DNA of 64,000 nt from Mytilus edulis (Eukaryota): contig NC_092347.1 of the NCBI RefSeq assembly GCF_963676685.1, forward strand, positions 98,890,001 to 98,954,000, in the 5' to 3' direction. This document shows positions 4,680 through 57,692 of this stretch, piece by piece. The notes beneath the pieces were generated by a model, which worked only from the letters and a program-made list of their open reading frames with translations, searched no databases and was not told the DNA's origin. Made by a program: the position numbers and the translations under genes. Numbering within the stretch: position 1 is the stretch's first letter; each line of letters starts with the position of its first letter.

Positions 4680-4786
4680 TTTGTGGTAATATGTATAATA
4701 CATCATATTTCATTATGAAAAGAACAATATATAAGGGTTCTCGAACCATACATTCAGCACAACACTGTACCATCGCACAAAATCAA
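4680..4786 (+). promoter_or_regulatory. Core promoter and non-coding exon 1 of paralog 1
   Basis: TTGTGGTAA..TGTATAATACATCA block, TATATAA 4728-4734, Inr-like CATTCAG (~4756), donor caa|gtaagt at 4787; block conserved upstream of all five paralogs. Confidence 0.8.
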
Positions 4787-7654
4787 GTAAGTTTCTTTAC
4801 AAAATTAACTATATTCATGATATTGTCTGTTAATTTAACTGCTCCATCGCAATTTATAGTATTCAACTTTTGACGATTTTTTAAGTTGAGAAAATTATGT
4901 CTTTGTCATTTTAGACAATCACACGATATTTGTGTTGTTACTACTATAAGTTTGATAAAATATTTTTGTATCACTAAACAATGCATTAGAAATCAAGAAG
5001 TCAAAGCTTACAGCAGTCAGCAATAAAATATCCACTTTTCTTTGAGATGAAACTTGATATTTAACAGTTCTTTCATTTCTAGATAAAATCAATGTATTTT
5101 AAATGACCTGCTATTTCTATGTCCTTTGTGGTCGTCCTTTTGTGAAATATTCGGCTTTGAGTGTTCCATATGAAGGACAATTCAGAAAAACTCTCTTGAA
5201 GCACAAAATTTGTTAAGTGTTATTTTCATTTCTATCGTGAGTATTATAAAAGTGCAAAATAATATAAATTATCTATAGAAGAACAACATGATACATAGTG
5301 TCAACTAGACCAATTTCTAATAAAAACAATATTATATTAGTAAAGTGAGATCGAAAAGGTAAAACCAAAATAATTGTTTGACAAAAATGAACGTTTTAAG
5401 TAGGTAAAAATTAGTTAAAAAAACGTCAAAGCGATTTATGAAGTTTGGAAAATATGCAGATGAAAACCCCATGATTACCAAAGAAATTATTACACGTGCA
5501 ATTCAGTTATATAAACTACTTCTAAGTATAAAATTATTCGGTTTACAATTTGTCATGAGCTAAATCCACTAGAGTATGAAAAACGCACCAAAAACAGTGA
5601 TATTGCTTCTTTCAAGGTTTTATGCTGTTCTAAAGATGGATATTTTTCAAATGGTGCAATTTTGTCAAAAAAGATGCAAAAGACGCCAGAGTGGAATTAA
5701 ATATTATAAGTAGAAATAAAAACTGACAATACCGTGACAAAAACGAAATGCGACAAAAAGAACGAAACAAAACTGTAAAGAACATTTTATGTGATTTTTT
5801 ATCATTACATAAATCTATTGGCTTGAATAACAATAAATTAAGTTTACTCATTATCAAAGGCTGTAGGGTGACCTGTTATTGTTTATACGTTTGTCTTTTG
5901 GTGCTTGTGAATAGTTTTCCAAATGGTAATTGAACCATAGTTTTATATAAATGTTTATTTAAAGCACATATCGAAAACTATTTTGAATGAAACTTCAATA
6001 TGTTCAATTTGATGTCTTCGACCCAATGACGTTTTGACATTACCATAGTTTGATATATTTATTTAAGGTAAATATCAAATACAATAGTTTTGAGTGAAAT
6101 TTCAATATTATCAATTTAATATCTTCGACCAAATGACTTATCGTTTTGACATTACCTTTCTATAGTGAAACTAACAATACATATCTGTGATTACTGTTAC
6201 CGACACTTGGACCTACTCCTTGAAGTCTGATAAAATACAATAAATTAGAAGGGGGAATTATCTCATGGGCCATACCACTAGTCTGATGTTTACAATTGAA
6301 TTCAGACCATGAGATAAAGGGCTGTGTGTTTTACGTAGAATCACTCTACAGATTAATAATGTAATCACGTAATAAAACATCTGTAGCCTTTCTTTAGCGA
6401 AAACTACAATAAAATCACTGTGAAAATATGATGAAAAAACTTTATGTATGACAACTTTTACTACTGATTGGCACACGAATGAAAGACATTTGTGCAAACG
6501 AAACGGTCAAACTTTACAACACACTATTGTTTTGGGGGTTCTCTTATTAGAGGTTTCTCAACATCTTCCGAACGAACGAAAATTGACCTACCTTGACGTA
6601 ACTTGCCGTAACGAAAAAAGAGGGAGCATTCATTTTGAGTCGTAGACATATTATATTGACTTGATATATATAATATATGTAATTGATCAATAAATTATGG
6701 CGAGGAATATAAAATATTTAGACCCAGGACAGCAATGTGTATGGTTTATATTCGTACAAATTTTAGTATTTATAAAATTATTTTATTTCGGTTTTTTTTC
6801 GTTGAGTTTTAATGGCATGCTGTATATGTTTCTTCGGTTTATATTTTTCTTATTTTTTCTATTTACTGTAGGAATAGAATTTAAAGAAAACGAACCTTTT
6901 AAAAACTATGTAACTATCAGTTTTGTTGGTGCAGTAGCACTCATACTTTCAACAAGAATACACAAAACTCTATTACTTTATGATTGATCGAATGCACCTT
7001 TATATTTCTGTAACTAATTCCAAAAATAATTTAAAGCAAGTCGGACCAATTGGACATTTTTTGTTTGGTGCTTATTTCTAGAAGACATAATTTACCCAAA
7101 CTCACCATCCTTTATTCGATCCATATTTATAAGGGATGTATGGATATTTTAAAAGAAAATACTAAACTTGTGTCATCTAAAAAACTTTTTAATCCTTTTA
7201 CAAACACTAATCTCGTCGGGAAATACTTGTCACAGAACGTTAAACATCTAACAATCAATCAAATGAAATGCAAACCAGACGCCCGATTGTTTTTAACAAC
7301 ATTACAAACTGACATGTTCTTTTTAAATTGATAAGGGAGATAAATCAAACGCATATATTCGACATGTAACCAAACGAAACTCAACGTAAGAATACGTAAC
7401 ATGCAACAGCAGAAAATAAATTGGAACATCGATGTTTAACCACAAAATTAAAATGCAAGGTGGTAAAAAGACTATGCAATTGTTTACCGTTGTCTTTCAA
7501 CACACTACAATATCGCTAAACATTTATTGTGGATTTTATGATCTAAATAACTGCTCCTTAACGCTACGTTCGTAGAGTTTCGTTCGTTCGTAAGATGTTG
7601 ACAAACCTCTATTAAGTACTCTGTAATAAAAAAAAAAATCTTTTCTATTGAAGA

Positions 7655-9340
7655 ATGCAGATCTTAGTCGGTATACTCCTGGTTATTTGTAGCGCAGTCA
7701 GCGCATCCTATAAAGGAGGATATGGCGGTTATGGAGGTGGATACGGAGGATACGGAGGTGGATTCGGTGGTGGGTTCGGAAGAGGATACGGAGGATACGG
7801 AATCGGAGGTGGTTACGGAGGATATGGAATCGGAGGTGGATACGGAGGATATGGAATCGGTGGTGGATACGGAAGATACGGTGGAATCGGAGGTGGATAC
7901 GGTGGCGGATACGGAGGCGGATATGGAAAAGGAAAAGTTGTTGTCGTTAAAGGATATGGTGGTTATGGTGGTTTAGGAGGTGGATATGGTGGTTATGGTG
8001 GATATGGTGGCGGTTATGGTGGACTAGGAGGTGGATATGGTGGTTATGGTGGTTACGGAGGTGGATTAGGTGGTATTGGAGGAGGATATGGTGGTTACGG
8101 TGGTGGATACGGATACGGAAAGGGCAAAGGTAAGATATTGTATACTTTAAATTATCATTTGACAATTACTTAATGTATAGATTGTATAGGTTTTATTCAT
8201 TCATTTGTTTAAAGCCTATACAGGTTTCTGTCAGAATGTCAAAGGATACAATACGCCTTCTTAAAAGGGAATATACATTGCAGCCGTCAAATAGATGACA
8301 TATATAAAAACAATATAAAAGTTTTGTTTTATCCCTATTGATTTCACTTACGTTCTAAGAATCCGTAGGAAGTCAGTATCAAACCACATTAAATATGGTG
8401 TAAATCATCATTTACATGTTCAGGACTAAATTCTTTGTAAAAATATTCAAGGGTTTTGCAAGGGTAAAAAGTGAGACGTTTTAATTCACAAACAAACTGT
8501 AGATTCTTCAGAGTTGAATTATTTCCCTTGTTTAAAATTATCCGAGTTTAATACTATGACGTAAACATAAAGTAAGGTTGACTAGATTATTGAATTATTG
8601 AATTTTTGATATTTTAAACAGATATCATTACAGGTAATCTTCACACTTTGCAAGAAGTGAGGTGACTGACAAAAACATTAGTTTCGTCAAAATAAACAAC
8701 AGAAAGTAAAACTAAGTACGCAAAACTTCGGAAGAAATTAGCCAAGTGAAATGCAAACAGTATTATTTAACTTGAATTTGATTATATGTGATATAGCTTT
8801 ATTGTTAAAAATGAAGATGTATTATCAATGCTTATACCAAGCCATTCGTTTGATGTGTTTGGGCTTTTGATTTTGCATTTGTTGAGGTACTTTCCGTTTG
8901 GAATTTCAATTGTAGGCCGCTTTTATGCGTATATAATAAAAAAAAAAAAGGAAACACAAAAAATGTAAAATATAATTTTGTTTAAAAAGTCTGATTAAGT
9001 ACAAAATCAACAATGCAAAATGATAAGTGTTATTGTGCCATGGTAAATGTTTGTTTATACATTTGTTTTGTCAGTATAATCGAATTTTATGCGATTGTTA
9101 TACAAGTGAGAGGTTTATATAGCTATTAAACCAGGTTGGATCCACCACTTTCTAGTTCCAAGACACGAATATTATAGGTGTTGTCCATTCGTTTGATGTG
9201 TTTGAGCTTTTGGTTACGCCATTTGATTAGTAGGGACTTTCCGTTTTGAATTATCTTCGGAGTTCAGTATGTTAGAGATTTTACTATTTTCGTAAAACCG
9301 ATGTTATAAGATATTTTCATTTTATTTTGCAGGATATTAA
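7655..9340 (+). CDS. Secreted glycine/tyrosine-rich structural protein, paralog 1 (shematrin-like), 160 aa; coding exons 7655-8129 and 9333-9340
   Basis: Signal peptide MQILVGILLVICSAVSA followed by SYKGGYGG and GGYG/GGLG repeats. Acceptor ttgaag|A-ATG; phase-1 donor AAAG|gtaag at 8130; last exon ttttgcag|GA TAT TAA gives ...GKGKGY*; AATAAA at 9395-9400. Same structure in four other paralogs. Confidence 0.9.
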
Positions 9341-22484: not shown

Positions 22485-22601
22485 TCGTGGTAATATGTAC
22501 AATGATACATCAAATTGTATTATGAAATTAGCAATATATAAGGCTTCTAGAACCAACAGTAAGTACATTCAGCAAAATACTGAGCCACCGTACAAAAACA
22601 G
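22485..22601 (+). promoter_or_regulatory. Core promoter and non-coding exon 1 of paralog 3
   Basis: GTGGTAA block, TATATAA 22535-22541, TACATTCAGC, donor cag|gtaagt at 22602. Confidence 0.8.
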
Positions 22602-23439
22602 GTAAGTTTCTATATTGTCAGTGTAAATTTAAGTTCTATTGTATTAACCATTCCATCTAGATTTTATATTTTTGTCGATTTTAAAGATGGAGTATACATT
22701 TGCCATTCAGAACATTTAAACATTTGTCACGAAGATAGCGTTGCAATTGAAAATCTAAAAAAAATATTTCCTTGTCGCCAAAAGATTGATAAATTGAAAA
22801 CATGCATTCTTCAGTCGTTAAAGATAATTTTTTATTGAAAGTAAATGTGGCACATCTTTTATTGATACCAAAAAGCAAATAAATTATAAGTAGTTTACGA
22901 ACCAATTATCCTTTCATTTTCAAAGATAATATACAATTTTAATCTTTCAAAAAGCAGTACTTCTTGGAATGTTTCTGGGCTAAATTCCATTTCTTTTGAC
23001 AAGGAACATGAAGTGGTAGAATTATTTATAGTTAAACATGTCATTTTATCTCTAGAATTAATCTGATGTAAAAATAATTTAAATGATTTTTTTGAGTTCT
23101 ACAAATAGTTTTTCATTATCGAAAATGAGATGAAATAGGGGGAAATTAAATAAAAAATTTCATATGGCTTTTTCACTTTATATTATCAGTATATACCTGA
23201 ATCACCATTATAATCTAAAAAAAAATTCTATCTGACAAATTATATTTGCTGATTTCTGATGCGGTACGAGATAGTAGAAAAACATATACATTGTGTATCA
23301 TTTAACTTAACTTTATACCTCCGACAAATGTTGTCACATGATATGATACAGATTACGTTTTTCTAAAATTCATTGCAACAGTGATTAAGTTAGATGTCTT
23401 ACATATAAGGGGTTTTATATAGTCTTTGTTACTGTGACT

Positions 23440-23795
23440 AACTGTTTACAAAACTATGAATTTTTCGAAAAACTAGAGATTTTTTTATCCCAAGAATAGA
23501 TTACCAGGCCGTATTTGGCATAATATTTTGGAATTTTGGGTCCTCAATGCTCTTCAACTTTTTGTTTGTTTGGCTTTATATATAAAATAAAGAAGATGTG
23601 GTATGAAAGCCAATGAGACAACCGTCCACAAGAAACCAAACTGACACAGAAATTAGCAAATATATGTCACCGTATGGCCTTTAACATTGAGCAAAGCCCA
23701 CTGTTTTCGAACTTAGCGTCACTGATGAGTCCTATGTAGACAAAACGCGCGTCTGGCGTACTAAATTATAATCCTGGTACCTTTGATAACTATTT
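23440..23795 (+). mobile_element. Retrozyme-like copy in intron 1 of paralog 3, with a nested repeat fragment
   Basis: Same family; hammerhead at ~23716-23759 with GAAA mutated to AAAA; a repeat-A fragment is inserted at ~23582-23700. Confidence 0.7.
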
Positions 23796-24182
23796 ACATC
23801 AATATCGTCACGAAAGGCTGACACAGGATGATTTCAATTGATTGTTATAACCAGGTACATGATTATTAGGTTTTCATATGTATATCAAAATCAAAATCAT
23901 TCTAAATCTAGACAGTATTCAGCAAAAGTGTTACTGCATAAATTTAGTATTATTAAGAAACGAAATTTCAATATATCAGTTTCTATTGTTTGACCAATTA
24001 CTGTAATTTCTGCCATCGTTTTGATCCTTATTTATCTAGCTATAGAGAAAACACAAACAATAAAAAACATTTATCATTTTTACCAATCCTGCCAATCATA
24101 GTCAAACTTAACTTCCGGCTTTTGTATTCGAGATTCTCTTATTAAGTACTCTGAAACTAAGAAATTTCTTCTCTATTGCAGA

Positions 24183-25717
24183 ATGCAGGTCTTATTCGGA
24201 ATTCTCCTGGTTATCTGTAGCGCAGTCAACGCATCCTATAAAGGAGGATATGGCGGTTACGGAGGTGGATACGGAGCAATTGGAGGATACGGAGGTGGAT
24301 TAGGAGGTGGATTAGGAGGTGGATTAGGAGGAGGATTAGGAGGAGGTTTAGGAGGAGGATTAGGTGGAGGATTAGGAGGGGGATTGTGGGGTATCGGAGT
24401 TGGTGGATACGGTAAAGGAGGATATGGAGGAGGATATGGTGGATACGGTGGAATCGGTGGTGGATACGGTGGATACGGAATCGGCGGTGGATACGGTGGA
24501 TATGGAATCGGTGGTGGATATGGTGGATATGGAATCAGAGGTGGATACGGAGGATACGGAATCGGTGGTGGTCTAGGCGGCGGATTCGGAGGTGGACTCG
24601 GGGGCGGATATGGCGGATACGGTAAAGGATACAAAAAAACTATTGTTGTAAAAGTACCCGTTAAAGGATATGGTGGTTACGGTGTTGGAATAGGTGGTAT
24701 CGGAGGTGGATTAGGTGGTATCGGAGGTGGATTTGGTGGTATCGGAGGTGGATTTGGTGGTGTCGGAGGTGGACTTAGTAGTATCGGAGGTGGATTAGGA
24801 GGAATCGGAGGTGGATTAGGTGGTAAACTAGGTGGATATGGTGGTTTGAATAGTTATGCATATGGAAAGGGCAAAGGTAAGATAATGTCTACTTCAAATT
24901 ATTATTAAACTATCATAATTTCACTGGATTTCTATTGCTCAACGAATAATGTTTATTCATATATGTGTTTGGTTACAGTTATCATATTGATATATCATTG
25001 TTTAACTTCTACATACATTGCTTTATATTGTAAAATTGATGACATGTCTTATTCAGAGTAAAATGTATCAATCTATAGTTTGATTTCCCCATTACTGCGG
25101 AATACATATGCACATTATTTTGTCAGAATTCCACAGTATGCGACTACCTATAACAAAATGTTACCATATAAAATAAAAGAAAGTTCCCATTAAAACATCG
25201 ATGAAATATGCTATTGCAATTATTATCTGTTTTCTAACTATATCTACTATATATAAAGTTTGAATAGATTCCATATTCTTAACAAATGTTAGTTATATCC
25301 CTACATACATCTGTACTAATTATGGTCTGGATAAACCAATATGATTATGAATTATATTAAAATATTAAAAGGGAGTAAACAAATATTAGAAGTATTTATA
25401 TAAATTGTTAGGCTACACAAAAAACTAAAATAAAAAAATATTGACCTGCACATTTTGCAATATTGGCAGAAGGCTTCTTCCTAAACACACGGCGTGAATT
25501 GCTTAAATTTCGTTCATCAAAAAGATAACATCGTTCAAATCTTATGTTTACACAGTTCCGAAATAAAAGTTTTGTCCTTTTTTGATACAATGAATCAGAT
25601 TGAATTCACGGACTCAACAAGTTGACATAAATACAAAAATGAGAGCAAAAATGATAACTTCGTAAAGCTAATTCTACACTGTAAATATATATCTGTTTGT
25701 TTTTTTCAGGATATTAA
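24183..25717 (+). CDS. Secreted glycine/tyrosine-rich structural protein, paralog 3, 233 aa; coding exons 24183-24876 and 25710-25717
   Basis: Acceptor ctattgcag|A-ATG; signal peptide MQVLFGILLVICSAVNA; donor AAAG|gtaag at 24877; last exon tttttcag|GA TAT TAA. Closest to paralog 2. Confidence 0.9.
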
Positions 25718-36169: not shown

Positions 36170-36278
36170 TTTGTGGTAACATGTATAATACATCATATTT
36201 TTTTTTATAAAACGAACAATATATAAGGCTTTTAGAACCATACATTCAGCACAACACTGGACCATCGCACCCTATCAA
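36170..36278 (+). promoter_or_regulatory. Core promoter and non-coding exon 1 of paralog 4
   Basis: TTGTGGTAA block, TATATAA 36220-36226, CATTCAGCACAACACTGG, donor caa|gtaagt at 36279. Confidence 0.8.
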
Positions 36279-36904
36279 GTAAGTTTCTAAACAAGTTAAA
36301 TTTTCATGTTAAATAAAGTTAAGAAAGATTTTTTTAGTTTTAATTATGAACAGTATTTAACTTTTTGTCGATTCTGCAGGAGAAGACCGTTTGTCGGTCT
36401 ACACGTTTTGTCCATTACAGATGTTGCAATAGAAATTATTTATATACGATGTTTGCTTATTGCTGAACATGCAAAAGGAATGAATGACTCGGAGCATGCA
36501 GTCTTTGGCGATCAAATGTCCCCTTTTCAAAGAAAAATCTGTGAACATTTCTTACCTTTTATTAATACCAAAAGGAAAAAAATGATAAGTACTCAAGAAA
36601 ACCTTATATTATTTCTTTAACGACCTTTTTTGTAGTTATTAAAAGAGGTAAGTTAAACCGTCAAATTATTTCTAAATAGCACGCTGTACTTTTTTCAATA
36701 CATGCATTTTTCCTGAATAAAATTCACTTAATGCGTCCTGGCTAATGAATTATAAATGATTTTCAGAATTATTTTTATCTATATAAGCAGATCATTTCGT
36801 TCTATCATATCTAAATAAAAGCATAGGTAATGCATTGTAAAGGCCATGTGTGAGTTGCATAAAAGGGGCAATGAAAAGTAAATTGTCAATAGTAAAACAA
36901 AATG

Positions 36905-37185
36905 ATTACAGCCGATTTTATTGAGTGTGTAGCCAAAGGTAATATCTTTTGCATTGGTTAGCTTGCTTGTTAACTGAACCGTGAAGTCATTACTAGATCA
37001 TGTATACTACCCTCCTTTCGATGTAGCCTAGTTCAACAGAAAGATTAATTGGTTATCTGTTGGACTAGTCTACTCTTAAAAGAGGGCAGTTTATCTGACC
37101 TAATAATGACTTCACGGTTCAGCTAACAAGTAAGCTAATCAAAGATATTACCTTTGGCTACACACTCAATGAAACTGATTGTAAT
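36905..37185. mobile_element. MITE with ~85 bp TIRs in intron 1 of paralog 4
   Basis: TTGAGTGTGTAGCCAAAGGTAATATCTTT..CTGAACCGTGAAGTCATTA is mirrored by TAATGACTTCACGGTTCAG..AAAGATATTACCTTTGGCTACACACTCAA; empty site in the paralog 5 intron (~53480). Confidence 0.8.
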
Positions 37186-37257
37186 ACTGTCAAGTAGACG
37201 TATTTCTAAAATTGTAGATATTAAATTAATGAAAGTTACTTTAAATATTTAAAGAAT

Positions 37258-37705
37258 TAGAATGAAATTCAAAACAGTGTGGCTGTGGCCATTGATTGAC
37301 ACATTAAATTCATCCATTGACTGGGACAATTTTCGTGAACGTTTGTATGTAACGACCACTGTTCACGACGTACCTACGATAGACATTTAAACTGTGGGGT
37401 CACCAAGGTTTCTTAACGCCTTTAATTATAAAATAATTCGAAAAATTAATCAGGAATAACCTTTATGTTTTGATTTATATAATTTATATAAATCAAAACA
37501 TCGTGTTATTTCTGATTATTTTTTTTCGAATTACTTTATTAATGTTTTGAGAACCTTTGGTGACCCCATAGTTTAAGTGTCTTTAAAAAGTACTCAGTGA
37601 GCAATGGTCGTTACATACAAACGTTCACCTAAATTGTCCCAGTCAATGGATGAATTTAATGTGTCAATCAATAGCCACAGCCACACTGTTTTGAATTTCA
37701 TTCTA
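37258..37705. mobile_element. Foldback/palindromic MITE (~450 bp, almost entirely inverted repeat)
   Basis: TAGAATGAAATTCAAAACAGTGTGGCTGTGG... mirrored by ...CCACAGCCACACTGTTTTGAATTTCATTCTA; symmetry centre near 37482; TA ends; absent from paralog 5. Confidence 0.85.
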
Positions 37706-38300
37706 TTAAAATATAGCTGTTTGCAAGAAGTGGTCATCCTTTGAAATAACAAATTTAGGCAATGTTTGTACCGATGAAAATAAATTGTCTATTAAATAAA
37801 CGTCATTTGAATTAATAGTACATTCTGTACATCTATGTCAATAAGACAGCAATACAAAAAAACACACAAAACAAACGACATCTAGTTGTCACCGTCCTGG
37901 ACAACAAGAAATACTTTTTTTTCAAAATCACATCAATATTATCCATGAGATCTGCTCTGGAGATTATATCAGTAAATGATTGATACGGTGTGTGATGTTG
38001 GAAAACCCATATCATACACACTTAATTATACCTCTTGTAGATGTTTCCCCTGTTAAGACATAAAACGTTTTAGGTCGAGTGAAACCTTTAAATCTGGTAT
38101 GCATGTAATAATTAGGTTTTAACACAATTTGTCCAGTTCTCCAGTTGTCAGCCATCCATATTCAGTGTCTAATTGTTTTTGCCTAAATTACTGTATGAGA
38201 CAAAAGATATCAAGTGTTAATTCTTTTGTAAGATCTTTGAAAAAAAGAAGCGGAAGACACAAAATTGTAAATAGATTTCTTAAGTCGAAGAGGCACTAAT

Positions 38301-38356
38301 AGGTACTAGGATTATAATTTAATACGCCAGACGCGCGTTTCGTCGACATAAGACTC
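38301..38356 (-). mobile_element. 5'-truncated retrozyme/hammerhead fragment
   Basis: AGGATTATAATTTAATACGCCAGACGCGCGTTTCGTCGACATAAGACTC matches ~51811-51859 almost base for base. Confidence 0.8.
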
Positions 38357-38362
38357 CTTAGT

Positions 38363-38404
38363 TTAGGGTCAGGGTTAGGGTTAAGGTTAGGGTTAGGGTT
38401 AGGG
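38363..38404 (+). repeat. Interstitial telomeric repeat (TTAGGG)x7, two units imperfect
   Basis: TTAGGG TCAGGG TTAGGG TTAAGG TTAGGG TTAGGG TTAGGG, a few bases after a retrozyme hammerhead fragment. Confidence 0.9.
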
Positions 38405-39299
38405 TTTAAACACATTGTTTTTCGAATAATCGAAAGAGTTGCAGTATAAAGAGAATACATCTAAGTTGTATCGAAATATACATTTTATTTTAGTAGGTAC
38501 AAAACATAGAATAAAAATGCACGACAAAAACGTATATTTTTTCTGTTTAATAGCCTTTAAAAAGCAAATTCCTAAGATAACTGAAATTCAAGTTTGAGTT
38601 TGGGCTGTTATCTTACTAGCTATAATGAAACAACAAACAGTTATAATCGTTAACCATTTAGTTAACTAAAACAAAAATGGATCACAGGTTTATTCCGACT
38701 TACCGACATTAACGGTTATCCCATTAAATAAGAAAAATAAGTGCTTTATATCCACGAACAAGGTCTGATTTAGTCTGTTACTGTTATAACAGATTTTAAT
38801 CGCTCGCTCTAACACACCATCTTGATCATTTTGTTATGCTTAAACGGACTGAATTGCCTAAAATGACTATCAATAAGAAAAGCGTCTAAAACATGCAAGT
38901 CTAAAAAAGTTTGAAAGTTTTTCTCTTGCAGTAAATTCAATCATTTAAGTTGATCAGGCAAAATGACCGTTTCAGACTAAATTATTGCTTCTAGTGTAAT
39001 CTAGTGTCGCGTATCTTTAATCTTCTGTTCAAATTTAAATTCACAACAAGAGATACAATATTGTATGTTTTACGTAGAAAACATTAAATTAAAATACTCT
39101 ATCACACAAAGTCTAGAGTTGAAGTTGTGACCATTAAATAGTATTTACGATTATTTTTACTCGTAAGATTGTTTTGTAAAGAGCTACTGATTACCACATG
39201 CACGATCAAGTTTTGAAAACTTTACCTCAGAATGTTATTTTCAAAAATCTGAAACAATCTCCAATTAAATAATCTATAATATTTCTTGACTATTACAGA

Positions 39300-40376
39300 A
39301 TGCAAATCTCAGTTGGTATTCTTTTGGCTATCTTTGGCGCAGTCAGCGCATCCTATAAAGGAGGATATGGCGGTTACGGAGGTGGATACGGAGGATACGG
39401 TGGTGGACTGGGAGGATTAGGAGGTGGATTAGGAGGTGGATTAGGAGGAGGATTAGGAGGAGGATTGTGGGGTATTGGAGTTGGAGGATATGGTAAAGGA
39501 GGATATGGTGGATACGGCGGATATGGAATCGGAGGTGGATACGGAGGATACGGAATCGGAGGTGGATACGGAGGTTACGGAATCGGAGGTGGATACGGAG
39601 GATATGGCATCGGAGGTGGATATGGTGGATATGGAATCGGAGGTGGATATGGTGGAATTGGTGGTGGATACGGAGGATATGGAAAAGCCGTTGTTGTGAA
39701 AGTACCAGTATCTGTAGGATATGGCGGTTATGGTGGTATCGGAGGTGGATTCGGTGGTGTCGGTGGTGGATTCGGTGGAATCGGAGGTGGATTAGGTGGT
39801 ATCGGAGGTGGATTAGGTGGTATCGGAGGTGGAATTGGTGGTGGATATGGTGGTTTGAACAGTTATGCATACGGAAAGGGAAAAGGTAAGATAATGTCTG
39901 CTTTAAAAAAAAAAATTCTGACTAAATTTTATGGATCAACGGATGGTTCACATTATTAATTGGTTTAAATACATATTAAATATTGACGTATCATTTGCTA
40001 ACTTCTGCATAGATTGTTGAACATTGCAATATTGATGACATGTCTTATTCAGAGGGAAATACTTGATTAAATTGTTGTCAGTTTCATACATACATTCGTG
40101 TTATTACAGCAGTCGTTGTTAGAATTTCACATGATGACATTTCTGCCGAAAATGGGAGCCGTTATATTTAAAAAAAAATACTTTGATTCATTAAACATTA
40201 TATCAAACTTTTGTTTTCTCAAGAAAAAAATATTTCCTCTTCTAATTTTCTATTGTCTTAGATTGATTTAACTGAATAATGAATTTGACATAAATACGAA
40301 ACTTCAAACCATTATATGAACTCCATAAAGCCAATGCTATGCAATTAAATATATTTTTTGTTTTGCAGGATATTAA
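39300..40376 (+). CDS. Secreted glycine/tyrosine-rich structural protein, paralog 4, 197 aa; coding exons 39300-39885 and 40369-40376
   Basis: Acceptor tattacag|A-ATG; signal peptide MQISVGILLAIFGAVSA; donor AAAG|gtaag at 39886; last exon ttttgcag|GA TAT TAA; AATAAA at 40434-40439. Confidence 0.9.
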
Positions 40377-52247: not shown

Positions 52248-52354
52248 TTTGTGGTAACATGTATAATACATCATATTTTATTATGAAACGAACAATATAT
52301 AAGGCTTCAAAAACCATACATTCAGCACAACACTGGACCATCGCACCATATCAA
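52248..52354 (+). promoter_or_regulatory. Core promoter and non-coding exon 1 of paralog 5
   Basis: TTGTGGTAA block, TATATAA 52296-52302, CATTCAGCACAACACTGG, donor caa|gtaagt at 52355. Confidence 0.8.
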
Positions 52355-52656
52355 GTAAGTGTCTTAACAAGTCAAGTCTGTGGAATTGTTAGAATAAGTG
52401 TAGAAAACCAATTCTTCCATTTCCAACTATGAACAACTTTTAACCTTTCGTCGATTCTGAAAGAGAAAATATTTTGTGTTTGTCGTTCTAGATGTTTTGA
52501 TCGATGCAGGTGTTGCATTGGCAATAATTTACACAATATACTAGCTTATTGCTAAACGATGCAAAAGGAATAAATGAGTCGATACATGCTGTCGTCGGTG
52601 ACGTCGAACAAATGTCCCTTTTCCATTGACACATTTCTCATCTGATATTAATGCTA

Positions 52657-53152
52657 ATATGAGGCAGGCATTACCTGTGAATGGGGACGAAGTTTGTTTA
52701 AATTTATTTTTTTGTATTTTAAATATTTGTTAAAAAAAAAGATACGGAAATACCGTAACGTTTCCGATTTTGGTTCTGTTGTTAGGGATTTTACTTGTGA
52801 CGTTATTTAAGTTATGACGTCATGTTCAATGTAAAACAAAGAAACGCAATGCATCAGGTAGGCCTAACGTTTATTCATACCAAAGACAAAGAATGATTAA
52901 AAATGAAATATTGGTATTGTGTTCCTTGAGTTCCTATATTTTACTAGACTAATCAAAGTCTCACGACAACAAGACCGGAAGAAGGAAGTAGAGTTATGTG
53001 TTCTGCGCAGATCCGGAAATTAAAAAACACGACAAAAAAAAATTGAACGATTTTGAGTTCATTAGTACAATGAAAAATTCGGGAAATTTTCCCGATTTTT
53101 TTTTTTTTTTTTTATTGAATTTTCTACTGTAATAGGGGACTTCGTCCCCATA
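52657..53152. mobile_element. Probable TIR element inserted in intron 1 of paralog 5
   Basis: ATGGGGACGAAGT (52681) and ACTTCGTCCCCAT (53139-53151) form an inverted repeat; the segment is missing from the aligned intron of paralog 4. Confidence 0.6.
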
Positions 53153-53682
53153 TAAAAAAAATGATAAGTAGTAAATAAACCCTATTATTCTTTCATGAAT
53201 TAAAGACTTTACACTTAGTAACTAAGAAGTGATCTGTTGAACCGTCACATTATTTCTGAATTTCACGCTGTACCTTTTCTAATACGTACATGCATATTCC
53301 GTTATTAAATTTCATTTATTGCGTCCTTTCAAATCGACTGGAAATGATTTTCAGATTAATTTTACATTTTATACGCAAATCATTCCGTTCTATTATCTAA
53401 ATAAAAGCATATGTGATACATTTTGAAGGAGAACTATAAAAGTGGCAATGAAAATTTAATTGTCAATGAGAAAACAAAATAATGAATACCCTCAGGTATA
53501 CATTAATAAAAGTTACATAAGATGATTGAAATATATTAAAATGTAGGTGTTTCAAGTGGTGGTCCTTCTTTGAAATAACAAACTAAGGCAGTACTTGTAC
53601 CGATTAAAATAAACTGTCTTTTAAATAAATGCCATTTAAATTATTCTGAGTTGCTGTTAATGTCAATAAGACAGCAATCAAA

Positions 53683-54325
53683 ATTTATAAAACAAACGAC
53701 GCCTAGTTGTCACCGTACAGACAATAAAAAGAGAATTTCAAATATTTTGTTTTTCAATATCACACCAACTTGATCCACGATATATGCTCGGGGATTCTGT
53801 AAGTAAAGGATCGATGCTGTGTGTGATTTTGGAAAACAATAAACAATTCATTATACCTCTTAAGTATATGTTTGAATTTTCCCCTGAACAGTACACAGGA
53901 AAATATTTTGGACCAAAAAAAAGTTAAATAGTATTAAATTGGAAGCAAGCTACTCCAACCTATTGCATATACAGAATTTAAAAGCTATCCGAATTCTACA
54001 ATATTTATAAAACAAACGACGCCTAGTTGTCACCGTACGGACAATAAATAGAGAATTTCAAATATTTTGTTTTTCAATATCACACCAACTTGATCCACGA
54101 TATATGATCGGGGATTCTGTAAGTAAAGGATCGATGCTGTATGTGATTTTGGAAAATAATAAACTATTCATTATACCTCTTAAGTATATGTTTGAACTTT
54201 CCCCTGAACACTACACAGGAAAATATTTTGGACCAAAAAAAAATTAAATAGTATTAAATTGTAAACAAGCTACTCCAACCTATTGCATATACAGAATTTG
54301 AAAGCTATCCGAATTCTACAATATT
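53683..54325. repeat. Tandem duplication, 2 x 320 bp, in intron 1 of paralog 5
   Basis: ATTTATAAAACAAACGACGCCTAGTTG at 53683 and 54003; single copy in paralog 4 (~37870). Confidence 0.88.
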
Positions 54326-54804
54326 AAATGGTATTGCTTTGAAGGACAATGTAATACCAAATATATTACAATTCTCTGTTACACACATTAATTTCCATTT
54401 GTTGGAATTCAAACAGGATAGTTTTGCTTGGTAAAAAAAAAACCTTTTTCAAACTACAAAATTACGACTGTTAACATATCCACATATATTACCCTGCTAT
54501 CCTTTGATTTTGTGGAGGTTTTTTCGTTGCTGGTAATATTCGTTTATAATCATTGTGTAATTTTCTGGTGGATTGTTTCATCTTACAAAATCACGTGGCT
54601 GTTCACAATATACTGTCTGGGTCTTATCCATTATCAATTAGGGAAAAACGGTAACCTGTAATGCGAAAAACAAATATGTTACTTTTTTAAAATAATTTTC
54701 TAATTGTCAAAGATTGTACAATCTTTAATTCAATTTAAATATATCATGAAACTGTATTATTTGCGCAGTTGCTTTTTATAAAATAAAAATTTAAATAATA
54801 TTTA

Positions 54805-55250
54805 AAATAAACTGACAACTCCATGGCTAAAAATGAAAAGGACAAACAGACAAACAATAGTACACATGACACAACATAGAAAACTAAAGAATAAACAACA
54901 CGAACACCACAAAACATAGGGGTGATTTCAGGTGCTCTGGAAGGGTAAGCAGATCCTGCTCCACATGTGGCACCCGTCGTGTTGCTTATGAGATATCAAA
55001 TCTGGTAAATAGTCTAATAAGGTAGGTCACATTTATGAAAGGGAAGGGGATTGTAGTTACGACGTAAGGAACATATCTGATATCATTTGTGAAACGGTTA
55101 TTCCATAGCGGTCAACCAACTCGTGATGGCGTCCGTAAAATTTACGAAGAGATGATTTCAACTTCACCATTTTGAACACTTGATTTAATAGCTTCCTTGT
55201 TAGCAACAACCCTCTATCAAGAAAAACATGATAGGAAATGCAAGCACGGG
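54805..55250 (-). mobile_element. 3' fragment of a Penelope-like retroelement (end of the RT ORF plus 3' UTR)
   Basis: Minus frame 55248-55057 reads RACISYHVFLDRGLLLTRKLLNQVFKMVKLKSSLRKFYGRHHELVDRYG..*, resembling the C-terminal region of mollusc PLE RTs (recognised from memory, not searched). Confidence 0.65.
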
Positions 55251-56011
55251 AAGTAAGAGTTGCAGTATAAAGAGAACGATTCTAAGTGATATCGAAATTA
55301 AAACATTTTTTTTTTTAGTAAACACGGAATATTTCAAGATTTTGTATAATTCTTTTTTGAATATATAGCAATTTCCTTAGTACTTTGCGATGACTGAAAT
55401 TCAAGTGAGCGTTTGGACTTTTTTTTATCTTTCTAGCTATAATTAAAACAACAAAATCTTTTACCATTTATTGGACTTAAAATGTAGTTGTATATATAAC
55501 AAGATTAAAGGGTTTTTCAAAATTACCAAAATTGACAGTTATCCCATTAAATATGAAGAAACATATATATCTTAAAAGTGCTGTAATATCCTAGAACTGA
55601 AAAAAGTTTTGAAGTTTTTCCCTTGCAGTAAATTCAATCATTTGACTTGATCAAACTAAAATGACCGTTTCAGACTGAATTCTTGCTTCTAGTGTAATCT
55701 AGTGGCGCGTATCTTTAATCTTCTGTTCAAATTCTATAAATTCACAACATGAGATACAAGATTGTATGTTTTACGTAGAAAATTAGTATATTCAAGTACA
55801 CAAAGTCTTTAAAAGGATTGAAGTTGTGACCATAAAATAGTATTTACGATTATTTTTACTCGTATAATTTTTTTAAAGAGCTACTGATCACCACATGCAC
55901 GATCAAATTTTGAAAAATGACAAAACTTAACTTCAGAATGGTATATAAAAAAAACTGAAACAAGCTCCAATTAAATAATCCATAACTTATATATTTCTTG
56001 ACTATTACAGA

Positions 56012-57076
56012 ATGCAATTCTCAGTTGGTATTCTCTTGGCTATCTTTGGCGCAGTCAGCGCATCCTATAAAGGAGGATATGGCGGATACGGAGGTGGATA
56101 CGGAGGATACGGTGGCGGATTAGGAGGGGGATTAGGTGGAGGATTAGGAGGAGGATTAGGAGGAGGATTGTGGGGTATTGGAGTTGGTGGATACGGCAAA
56201 GGAGGATATGGTGGATACGGCGGATATGGAATCGGAGGTGGATACGGAGGATACGGAATCGGAGGTGGATACGGAGGATACGGAATAGGTGGTGGATACG
56301 GAGGATATGGAATCGGAGGTGGATACGGAGGATATGGAATCGGAGGTGGATATGGTGGATATGGAATCGGAGGTGGATATGGTGGAATCGGTGGTGGATA
56401 TGGAAAAGCCGTTGTTGTTAAAGTACCAGTATCTGTAGGATATGGCGGTTATGGTGGTATCGGAGGTGGATTCGGTGGTGTCGGTGGTGGATTCGGTGGA
56501 ATCGGAGGTGGATTAGGTGGTATCGGAGGTGGAATTGGTGGTGGATATGGTGGTTTGAACAGCTATTCATATGGAAAGGGAAAAGGTAAGATAATTTCTA
56601 CTTTAAATGATTGTTTTATCATTATTTTTCTGACTGGAATTTATTGATCAACGAATTGTTTACATTCCTTAATTTGTTTGAATACATGTTAAATATCATT
56701 CGCTAACGTCTGCCTAGATTGTTTTACATGGCAAAATTGATGACATGCCTTATCCAGGGGAAATACTTGATTAAATTGTTGTCAGTGTCATACATACATT
56801 CGTGTAATTACAGCAAAAAGATTGTGCAAGTTTTTTTTTAAAGAATTCCACATGATATATTTCTTTTAAAAAGGAAAACGTTATATCTAAAATACTCTGA
56901 TTCATAACACCTAATTTCAAACATTGTTTCTCGAAAAAAAACTAATATTTTCTCTTCTAATTTTATATTGTTTTAGATTAATTTAACTGAATAATGAATT
57001 TGAATAAATACGAAAACTACAAATTATTAGCCAATGGTATGCTATAACATTTATATTTTGTTTTGCAGGGTATTAA
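56012..57076 (+). CDS. Secreted glycine/tyrosine-rich structural protein, paralog 5, 193 aa; coding exons 56012-56585 and 57069-57076
   Basis: Acceptor tattacag|A-ATG; signal peptide MQFSVGILLAIFGAVSA; donor AAAG|gtaag at 56586; last exon ttttgcag|GG TAT TAA (synonymous Gly); AATAAA at 57132-57137. Confidence 0.9.
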
Positions 57077-57692
57077 ACGCAGATTACCAACCTAAACGGA
57101 TAAACAATGATAAACTTTTTTACATTTTTGGAATAAAATGTAATTGCTGTAGGGATTTTGTGTTGACTTTTTCTATCATAGATTTAATGTCACTGCACCA
57201 ACTGAACATGTTGAAGTCATGAACCAGTAATAAACACTGAACTTCTTAATCCTGTATATAGTTTAATACATAAACAGGATTATCCTAATTAACAGCTCAT
57301 CTTCACAAACAGCTCAATTCTGTTAAAATACATAATATAACACTTTGGAGTGTCTATGAGACAACTCTCCTTCCTAGTCAATAAAATGTAAAAAAAAAAT
57401 AACAGTTATTATTCAAAGTAAAAACACAGAGCCTTGGCTCACACCGAACAGCAAGATATCAAGGGCACACAAATTACTATTTAAAAACACTTTAAACAGG
57501 AAAACCAACGGTCTTCTCTATATAAAAACAAGATAAGAGAAACACCTATAAACAACACCTTCAAACGACAACTGTTGAACAACAGGCTCAGACAGGTTCA
57601 GATATATCCGGATGTTTCTTTTGTGGAAGATAAAATAAACTGTCGCTGCTACATGCTTTTATTCACATAAAAGGTTCCAATTGGCATGGTAG

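What the first reader, a model, noticed from the sequence alone, without database searches (positions are those of the whole stretch)
38301..38404. Hammerhead/retrozyme fragment capped by telomeric TTAGGG repeats inside an intron
Seen: the antisense (cDNA-sense) strand of a retrozyme breaks off inside the hammerhead core (..GACATAAGACTC) and runs within a few bases into seven TTAGGG-type units. Known: 5'-truncated endonuclease-lacking Penelope-like elements at chromosome ends are capped by telomeric repeats in this polarity. Inference: a fossil of telomerase extending, or the RT template-switching from, a retrozyme cDNA 3' end during break repair, linking ribozyme retroelements to telomere machinery.
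Basis: partly seen in the sequence, partly recalled or inferred. Interest (0 to 1): 0.7.

Follow-up and report, generated by a model that had tools for sequence, protein, structure and literature searches.

The report
Telomere scar inside a dead retrozyme
Seven telomere repeats sit in the middle of a small, already deleted copy of a common ribozyme-carrying jumping element in an intron, likely as the scar of a DNA break that telomerase patched after the copy had landed, which is a known kind of repair rather than a telomere cap on the element.

Summary
The sequence is real and intronic, and the tract's right junction is present in three other animals. The retrozyme does not end at the hammerhead core. 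ACTC|CTTAG is a 130-nt internal deletion, found without telomeric DNA in one other copy (C6). Retrozyme sequence resumes after the tract and a 10-nt filler (17/20 to consensus), with GTTT on both sides. So the tract was inserted into the copy. This matches short interstitial telomeric sequences (ITS) made during break repair. Anchored genome-wide searches found this polarity only here. No element 3' end was attached to telomeric DNA, so Athena-type capping is not supported. One more contact exists, in the opposite polarity: at C1:126.2 Mb a 5'-truncated retrozyme and 3.5 repeats fill a clean gap in a host repeat. After removing the ascertained site, enrichment is not significant (P 0.07-0.19). 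This leaves a modest chance that telomerase sometimes acts at retrozyme 5' junctions during integration.

The parts
36205..36288 (+). Promoter (TATA at about 36221), non-coding exon 1 (about 36243-36278) and GTAAGT donor at 36279 of the host gene
   Evidence: Conserved at 74-84% in 5 of 5 paralogues of the window; inferred from conservation, not from RNA
36279..39298 (+). Intron 1 (5' UTR intron) of a glycine-rich GGYGG secreted-protein gene; holds the whole feature
   Evidence: Donor; acceptor TTACAG directly before A-ATG
38297..38300 (+). TAAT in place of the family's usual terminus; shared with the C6 copy
   Evidence: 8 copies genome-wide start this way; the only two with the deletion are this one and C6
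38301..38356 (-). Retrozyme piece 1 (consensus 24-79): RNA 3' tail, cleavage site, stem III, GAAA, stem II and the GAG end of the hammerhead core; RNA sense is on the minus strand
   Evidence: BLAST and alignments
38355..38364 (+). Joint of a 130-nt internal deletion (2-nt TC microhomology inside an imperfect ATAAGA..TC repeat) and retrozyme piece 2a (consensus 210-217, CTTAGTTT); turns the core CUGAUGA into CUAAGGA and removes the 5' strand of stem I
   Evidence: Same joint, without telomeric DNA, in L004/L066 (C6:45.0 Mb)
38363..38406 (+). Telomeric tract, 7 hexamers plus TT; its first TT is shared with the retrozyme (in register)
   Evidence: at least 4 perfect units before the filler in X3, X5, X18
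38407..38416 (+). 10-nt filler of unknown source
   Evidence: Present in X3, X5, X18; no convincing template found
38417..38436 (+). Retrozyme piece 2b (consensus 214-233), resuming where piece 2a stopped, with GTTT duplicated (38361-38364 and 38417-38420); true 5'-truncation end; last 3 nt (AAG) shared with host DNA
   Evidence: 17/20 to consensus and to the C6 copy, first 10 nt exact; 0 such matches in 1.9 million shuffled positions, and the only other match in the window is a real retrozyme; paralogue homology resumes at 38434
39299..39899 (+). Exon 2, first 200 codons: signal-peptide-like start and Gly/Tyr-rich repeats
   Evidence: Translation; GGY repeats

Best explanation
This is a short run of telomeric repeats sitting inside an internally deleted, 5'-truncated retrozyme copy, likely inserted by telomerase while a staggered double-strand break in the already integrated copy was being repaired. 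Order of events: (1, shown) a deleted variant of the ~360-nt type-I hammerhead non-LTR retrozyme existed, lacking 130 nt and its catalytic core; it survives at C6 and here. (2, inferred) A short copy of it landed in intron 1, its 5'-truncated end joined to host DNA through AAG. (3, inferred) A later break cut it at CCTTAG/TTTTTCG with a 4-nt stagger. Telomerase primed on the exposed TT, added about 7 TTAGGG units, and end joining with 10 nt of filler closed the break, duplicating GTTT. (4, shown in part) The insertion spread and is shared by animals under three species labels; the tract has since taken point changes (the TTAAGG unit of this assembly is TTAGGG in three other animals). It is likely neutral.
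For: The deletion joint exists without telomeric DNA at C6, and the two copies share their start, a rare T variant and 63/68 nt of the left piece. The retrozyme resumes after the tract at the next consensus position. In-register TT, filler and a short duplication are the listed features of ITS insertions in mammals (PMC7215372 passages and Tables 5-6), and ITS inside repeats were resolved from the repeat consensus in the same way (PMC2246262 table footnote). Other short tracts in this genome have flanking duplications (L032, L261, L129 family), so the process operates here. No enrichment beyond chance after ascertainment: 1 of 61 other representative telomeric-repeat loci touches a retrozyme (0 of 50, 1 of 11) against 1.14% retrozyme cover. 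The tract is purer in other animals, as expected of a telomerase product.
Against: No tract-free allele of this locus was seen, so the pre-insertion state is rebuilt from the consensus and the C6 copy, not observed. The break lies only 20 nt from the 5' junction. The second contact (L262) sits exactly at a 5' junction with no host bases lost, which fits addition during integration. Counting both sites, P is 0.003-0.02. The right piece has 3 changes in 20 nt, whereas the left piece has 2 in 56 against the consensus; part of it is also a perfect hairpin (TTTCGA-ATAA-TCGAAA) and may be snap-back synthesis, leaving 10 exact nt. Telomerase action is inferred; capture of telomeric DNA would leave the same letters.
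Confidence: 0.6

Rival explanations
1. Telomerase acted during integration: it extended a free 3' end at or near the 5' junction of the new retrozyme copy (the cDNA end here, the host end at C1), and the ends were then joined by microhomology. This is a modified form of the first reader's idea.
For: Both contacts found are at or within 20 nt of the 5' junction of short copies. At L262 the element and 3.5 repeats fill a gap in a host repeat with no host loss (about 20 empty copies of that repeat compared), and the repeats meet the cDNA end at AAA/CCC. Expected contacts in the searched space are 0.07-0.22 and 2 were seen. Retrozymes are reported to derive from Penelope-like elements, whose RT is related to telomerase (10.64898/2026.07.22.740005 abstract; PMC8557442 passages).
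Against: Here the retrozyme resumes at the next base, which needs two switches (off the retrozyme RNA and back) instead of one break. The two sites have opposite polarity. After dropping the ascertained site P is 0.07-0.19 (0.17-0.43 by coverage). 0 of 128 other ends and no telomeric hit at four further anchors.
Confidence: 0.2
2. The tract is a captured piece of telomeric or telomere-like satellite DNA copied or ligated into the break, with no telomerase at the site.
For: The genome holds several telomere-like satellites. The tract end plus filler matches a 24-bp telomere-like minisatellite at 14/16 (L137), which also has TCAGGG units.
Against: Three unrelated loci match the filler equally well in the same 2.7 Mb. 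The exact junction occurs 3 times genome-wide against 8 for the reversed control. That minisatellite mostly has two perfect units in a row, not seven.
Confidence: 0.14
3. Athena-type capping as first proposed: a cDNA broken in the hammerhead core was healed as a new telomere and later became internal.
For: The polarity (G-strand after the cDNA strand) fits. The site is 1.15 Mb from the assembled end of C4.
Against: The core junction is a pre-existing deletion. The retrozyme and the old intron continue beyond the tract. The element has no telomeric repeats of its own and none of about 25,000 estimated 3' termini lies beside telomeric repeats.
Confidence: 0.03
4. The tract arose by slippage from the retrozyme's own TTAG seed, or is an assembly artefact.
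For: TTAG lies just before the tract; two units are variant.
Against: No TTAGGG unit exists in the family consensus. No other copy has repeats at this seed (2 hits, this one and a non-retrozyme subtelomeric site). The tract is in contigs of three other animals.
Confidence: 0.03

Closest known systems
Short interstitial telomeric sequences (ITS) inserted at double-strand breaks (Nergadze et al. 2007, PMC2246262; horse/human study PMC7215372; passages seen)
   Same: [quoted passage not shown]
   Different: Here in a bivalve-type genome and inside a hammerhead retrozyme; no empty orthologous allele seen; no telomerase-RNA-derived flank shown.
Non-LTR retrozymes of mussels (Cervera and de la Pena 2020, PMC7229834; passages seen)
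   Same: ~350-390-nt repeats with a type-I hammerhead; the family here has ~360-nt tandem monomers and the same kind of core.
   Different: This copy is about 88 nt of element, has lost 130 nt and the catalytic core, and is split by telomeric DNA. I did not compare it with the published sequences.
Endonuclease-lacking Penelope-like elements (Athena, Coprina, Terminons; PMC8557442 passages; capping of 5'-truncated ends recalled from Gladyshev and Arkhipova 2007, not read)
   Same: Hammerhead-bearing Penelope-related element next to telomeric repeats; G-strand follows the cDNA strand.
   Different: Not terminal; the element carries no reverse-complement telomeric repeats; its 3' end is not attached to telomeric DNA; the tract is inside the copy and unique.

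Membership tests
Short ITS from break repair | Short, well-conserved (TTAGGG)n at an internal site with unique flanks | tested here: met
   7 units, 1.15 Mb from the contig end; junction unique
Short ITS from break repair | Interrupts a previously continuous sequence (empty allele, orthologue or repeat consensus) | tested here: met
   By consensus and the C6 sister copy; no empty allele of the locus itself among the rows shown
Short ITS from break repair | Bases in register with the repeat at the break; end-joining marks (filler, duplication, deletion) | tested here: met
   TT in register, 10-nt filler, GTTT on both sides; two bases in register is weak on its own
Short ITS from break repair | Made by telomerase (for example a flank copied from telomerase RNA) | tested here: inconclusive
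   The filler junction gave 3 genome hits, none longer than chance; the telomerase RNA gene was not identified
Non-LTR retrozyme (type-I hammerhead) | Tandem 170-400-nt monomers with a CUGANGA..GAAA..UC core, no ORF | tested here: met
   For the family: ~350-365-nt tandem monomers with intact cores. Rfam gave no hit at gathering score
Non-LTR retrozyme (type-I hammerhead) | Intact ribozyme in this copy | tested here: not met
   Core reads CUAAGGA and stem I is lost; G5 is an invariant core base (recalled)
Non-LTR retrozyme (type-I hammerhead) | Self-cleavage and circular RNA | not testable with these tools
   Reported for mussel retrozymes in PMC7229834 (passages)
Athena/Coprina-type telomere attachment | Located at the chromosome terminus | tested here: not met
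   1.15 Mb of sequence follows; intron homology continues
Athena/Coprina-type telomere attachment | Element 3' end carries reverse-complement telomeric repeats and attaches to G-rich overhangs | tested here: not met
   None in the consensus; 0 hits within 61 nt of the family-1 terminus
Athena/Coprina-type telomere attachment | 5'-truncated end capped by telomeric repeats | tested here: not met
   The element resumes after the tract and joins host DNA at 38434-38436
Athena/Coprina-type telomere attachment | G-strand repeats follow the cDNA strand, recurrently | tested here: not met
   Polarity fits at this one site; the only other contact is reversed

The most novel reading that the evidence does not exclude
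Telomerase occasionally joins in retrozyme/Penelope integration, adding repeats to whichever free 3' end is exposed at the 5' junction (cDNA end at C4, host end at C1). Ribozyme retroelement insertions would then be one source of interstitial telomeric sequences in bivalves.
Probability: 0.17. Interest if true: 0.65.

Novelty: new member of a known kind. Interest (0 to 1): 0.3.

Why it matters
As it stands this is a clean invertebrate example of telomeric-repeat insertion at a break, a process described mainly from mammals, with its history readable from a sister copy. I found no paper holding both 'hammerhead' and 'interstitial telomeric', within the library searched. It gives no new function. 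If the weak excess of tracts at retrozyme 5' junctions held up across bivalve genomes, it would show telomerase acting on integration intermediates of Penelope-derived elements far from chromosome ends, and that is testable by computation alone.

Tried and rejected
Rfam scan: no hit; the hammerhead call rests on core motifs. Folding 66-nt pieces did not give the hammerhead as the lowest-energy fold even for an intact copy: uninformative. One search found nothing, but its gap was one base too short to catch this site, so it counts only as a partial negative; replace it. The 56-kb paralogue is no empty allele: it has a different element at the same place and no homology from about 38046 to 38434. 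My first guess that exon 1 lay at 39018-39063 or behind a TATA-like motif at 38443, which would put the site upstream of the gene, was dropped. RNA run X23 gave 11 reads, mostly diverged paralogues in exon 2, with no joints; no RNA holder was listed. The idea that the filler is read-through of telomerase RNA got no support. The TAAT start alone does not mark the deleted variant: 6 of 8 such copies lack this deletion joint. One search was swamped by a minisatellite (1586 hits) and gave 1 new locus class; lists were cut at 100 rows, so the ITS census is incomplete. A bacterial promoter scan was irrelevant. Earlier scan notes: nothing. The two primary Athena/Terminon papers could not be read; PMC4700185 passages held nothing on capping; a search for Athena + capped found 0 papers.

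Full report
Setting. The window is G000:C4:98,890,001-98,954,000 in a 1.37-Gb assembly; C4 is 100,079,844 bases long, so the site lies 1.15 Mb from the assembled end. The genome looks like a mussel's (inference from 14 large contigs and the repeat family). The window holds five paralogues of a Gly/Tyr-rich secreted-protein gene. All five share a TATA box, a short non-coding exon 1 and a GTAAGT donor, and the ATG follows the acceptor. RNA did not test this.

The element. 38301-38362 matches a repeat of ~350-365-nt tandem monomers with a type-I hammerhead core on the minus strand. This fits the mussel non-LTR retrozymes of PMC7229834 (passages seen); I did not compare sequences with that paper, and Rfam gave no hit. 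In 60 evenly placed 10-kb stretches the two families cover 6,862 of 600,000 bases (1.14%) in 37 elements, roughly 84,000 genome-wide.

The junction is not a break in the core. A consensus of 45 monomers shows that the bases after GACTC, CTTAGTTT, belong to an internal site 130 nt further on. A search for the joint gave 8 hits: six are point variants of the core or unrelated, one is this site, and one, at C6:45.0 Mb, reads straight on into TTTTTCGAAAAATTTAAAG and most of the rest of the monomer, with no telomeric DNA. A looser pattern gave 9 hits and no third deleted copy. The two copies share an unusual TAAT start (8 copies genome-wide), a T variant that the other six lack, and 63 of 68 bases, but no flanking DNA. 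They descend from one deleted variant whose core reads CUAAGGA and whose stem I is gone, so the ribozyme was lost independently of the tract.

The retrozyme resumes after the tract. After 7 units, TT and a 10-nt filler, 38417-38436 matches the next 20 consensus bases at 17/20, the first 10 exactly. A match this good occurred 0 times in 1.9 million shuffled positions, and its only other occurrence in the window is a real retrozyme. A position-free test was weaker (0.6% of shuffles, 3.8% of random window pieces). GTTT stands on both sides of the insert. Homology to the paralogue's intron restarts at 38434, so the real 5'-truncation end joins host DNA through AAG. Against this reading, piece 2b is more diverged than piece 1 and forms a small hairpin.

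Other animals. The left flank runs into the retrozyme in contigs of X2, X3 and X5. In 3 of 3 DNA runs laid (X3, X5, X18; organisms B, C, A; three studies) a contig begins in perfect TTAGGG repeats, at least four units, and continues through the same filler and flank. The TTAAGG unit of the assembly is therefore a later change. The retrozyme-to-tract junction itself was not bridged in any listed piece. No tract-free allele appeared among the rows shown, but the tables were cut, so absence is not shown.

Enrichment and polarity. From ITS side: 0 of 50 representative telomeric-repeat loci (one per cluster; satellites and chromosome ends included) had a retrozyme within 200 bp (nearest 230, 390, 683), and 1 of 11 further loci did (L262). 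From the element side: 0 of 128 distinct cDNA-3' ends carried repeats. Four anchors further along gave 0, 3 (none telomeric), 0 and 0. The element's 3' terminus gave 0. Two-unit searches returned only this site for the G-strand and only L262 for the C-strand. Copies with changed anchors are missed. For 17-50 isolated tracts the expected number of contacts is 0.07-0.22; P is 0.003-0.02 for two, and 0.07-0.19 for one after dropping the site that prompted the search (one search's anchor not included in that sum).

The second site. At C1:126,216,900, 100 kb from the contig end, a 110-nt 5'-truncated retrozyme (94%) is followed on the cDNA strand by (CCCTAA)3 and a partial unit. Comparison with about 20 uninterrupted copies of the host repeat (21 rows) shows no host bases lost. 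The polarity is opposite to the one here: the G-strand grew from the host end. This fits repeat addition during integration, or a later break whose deletion stopped at the element's end.

Mechanism. The simplest history is: deleted variant; short copy in the intron; later staggered break; telomerase primes on TT and adds about 7 units; end joining with filler duplicates GTTT. In-register bases, filler and duplications are the marks of ITS insertion in mammals (PMC7215372, passages and Tables 5-6), and ITS within repeats are described in PMC2246262 (passages). Other tracts here carry flanking duplications (L032, L261, L129 family). Shown: the pieces, the sister copy, sharing among animals, the counts. 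Inferred: timing, the break and telomerase action.

Comparison with what is known. It works like, and passes the testable features of, a short ITS. It fails the features of Athena/Coprina attachment: not terminal, no telomeric repeats in the element, no 3' attachment (described in PMC8557442, passages), no cap at the 5' end (capping recalled, primary papers not read). The Penelope origin of retrozymes is argued in 10.64898/2026.07.22.740005 (first 10,000 characters read). No paper in the library holds both 'hammerhead' and 'interstitial telomeric'; searches listed nothing on telomeric insertions in retrozymes.

Verdict. A real feature, misread in its anatomy: a new member of a known kind. Interest 0.3, held above the floor by the second contact and by a cheap, decisive multi-genome test.

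Noticed in passing
L262:1404-1530 (G000:C1:126,216,800-126,216,930): Second retrozyme-telomere contact, opposite polarity: a 110-nt 5'-truncated copy plus 3.5 CCCTAA units fill a gap in a host repeat with no host loss.
   Followed up: yes
L066/L301 (G000:C6:45,001,217 onward): Sister copy with the same 130-nt deletion and start, no tract; itself interrupted by another repeat.
   Followed up: yes
L032 (C1:125.83 Mb), L261 (C1:111.07 Mb): Short telomeric tracts with flanking direct duplications of about 11 and 15-20 nt, typical of repair at staggered breaks.
   Followed up: partly
L129, L142, L146, L152: A repeat family carries a 2-unit tract between ~24-nt direct duplications and has spread it to at least four chromosomes.
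   Followed up: no
L113-L119 (C324, C534, C886, C1587, C1907): The same GC-rich sequence runs into long perfect telomeric arrays at 7 places on 5 unplaced contigs; on C324 and C886 two such junctions lie 16,331 bases apart. Possibly a telomere-capped 16-kb unit or a subtelomeric array.
   Followed up: no
C2:26.3 and 40.1 Mb; C2:28.9, C5:60.6, C10:72.0 Mb; C7:2.43 Mb: Several telomere-like satellites: a ~150-bp unit with 3-6 TTAGGG, a 24-bp minisatellite with two perfect units, and a ~74-bp unit.
   Followed up: no
L184, L187, L192-L197 (ends of C4, C6, C8, C9, C10): ~1.18-1.24-kb subtelomeric repeats with head-to-head CCCTAA/TTAGGG switches; may be real fold-backs or assembly effects.
   Followed up: no
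L107 (C5:4,369,528) and L183 (C2:66.80 Mb): A long perfect TTAGGG array 4.4 Mb inside C5; an inverted duplication with two facing tracts on C2.
   Followed up: no
window 4713-8109, 18586-15807 (minus), 22520-25064, 36205-40060, 52281-57197: Five tandem paralogues of a GGYGG-rich secreted protein with conserved TATA, exon 1 and 5' UTR intron.
   Followed up: partly
window about 54830-55254: The 56-kb paralogue has a different repeat ending at the same intron position at which the retrozyme ends here, just before a conserved TATA-like motif.
   Followed up: no
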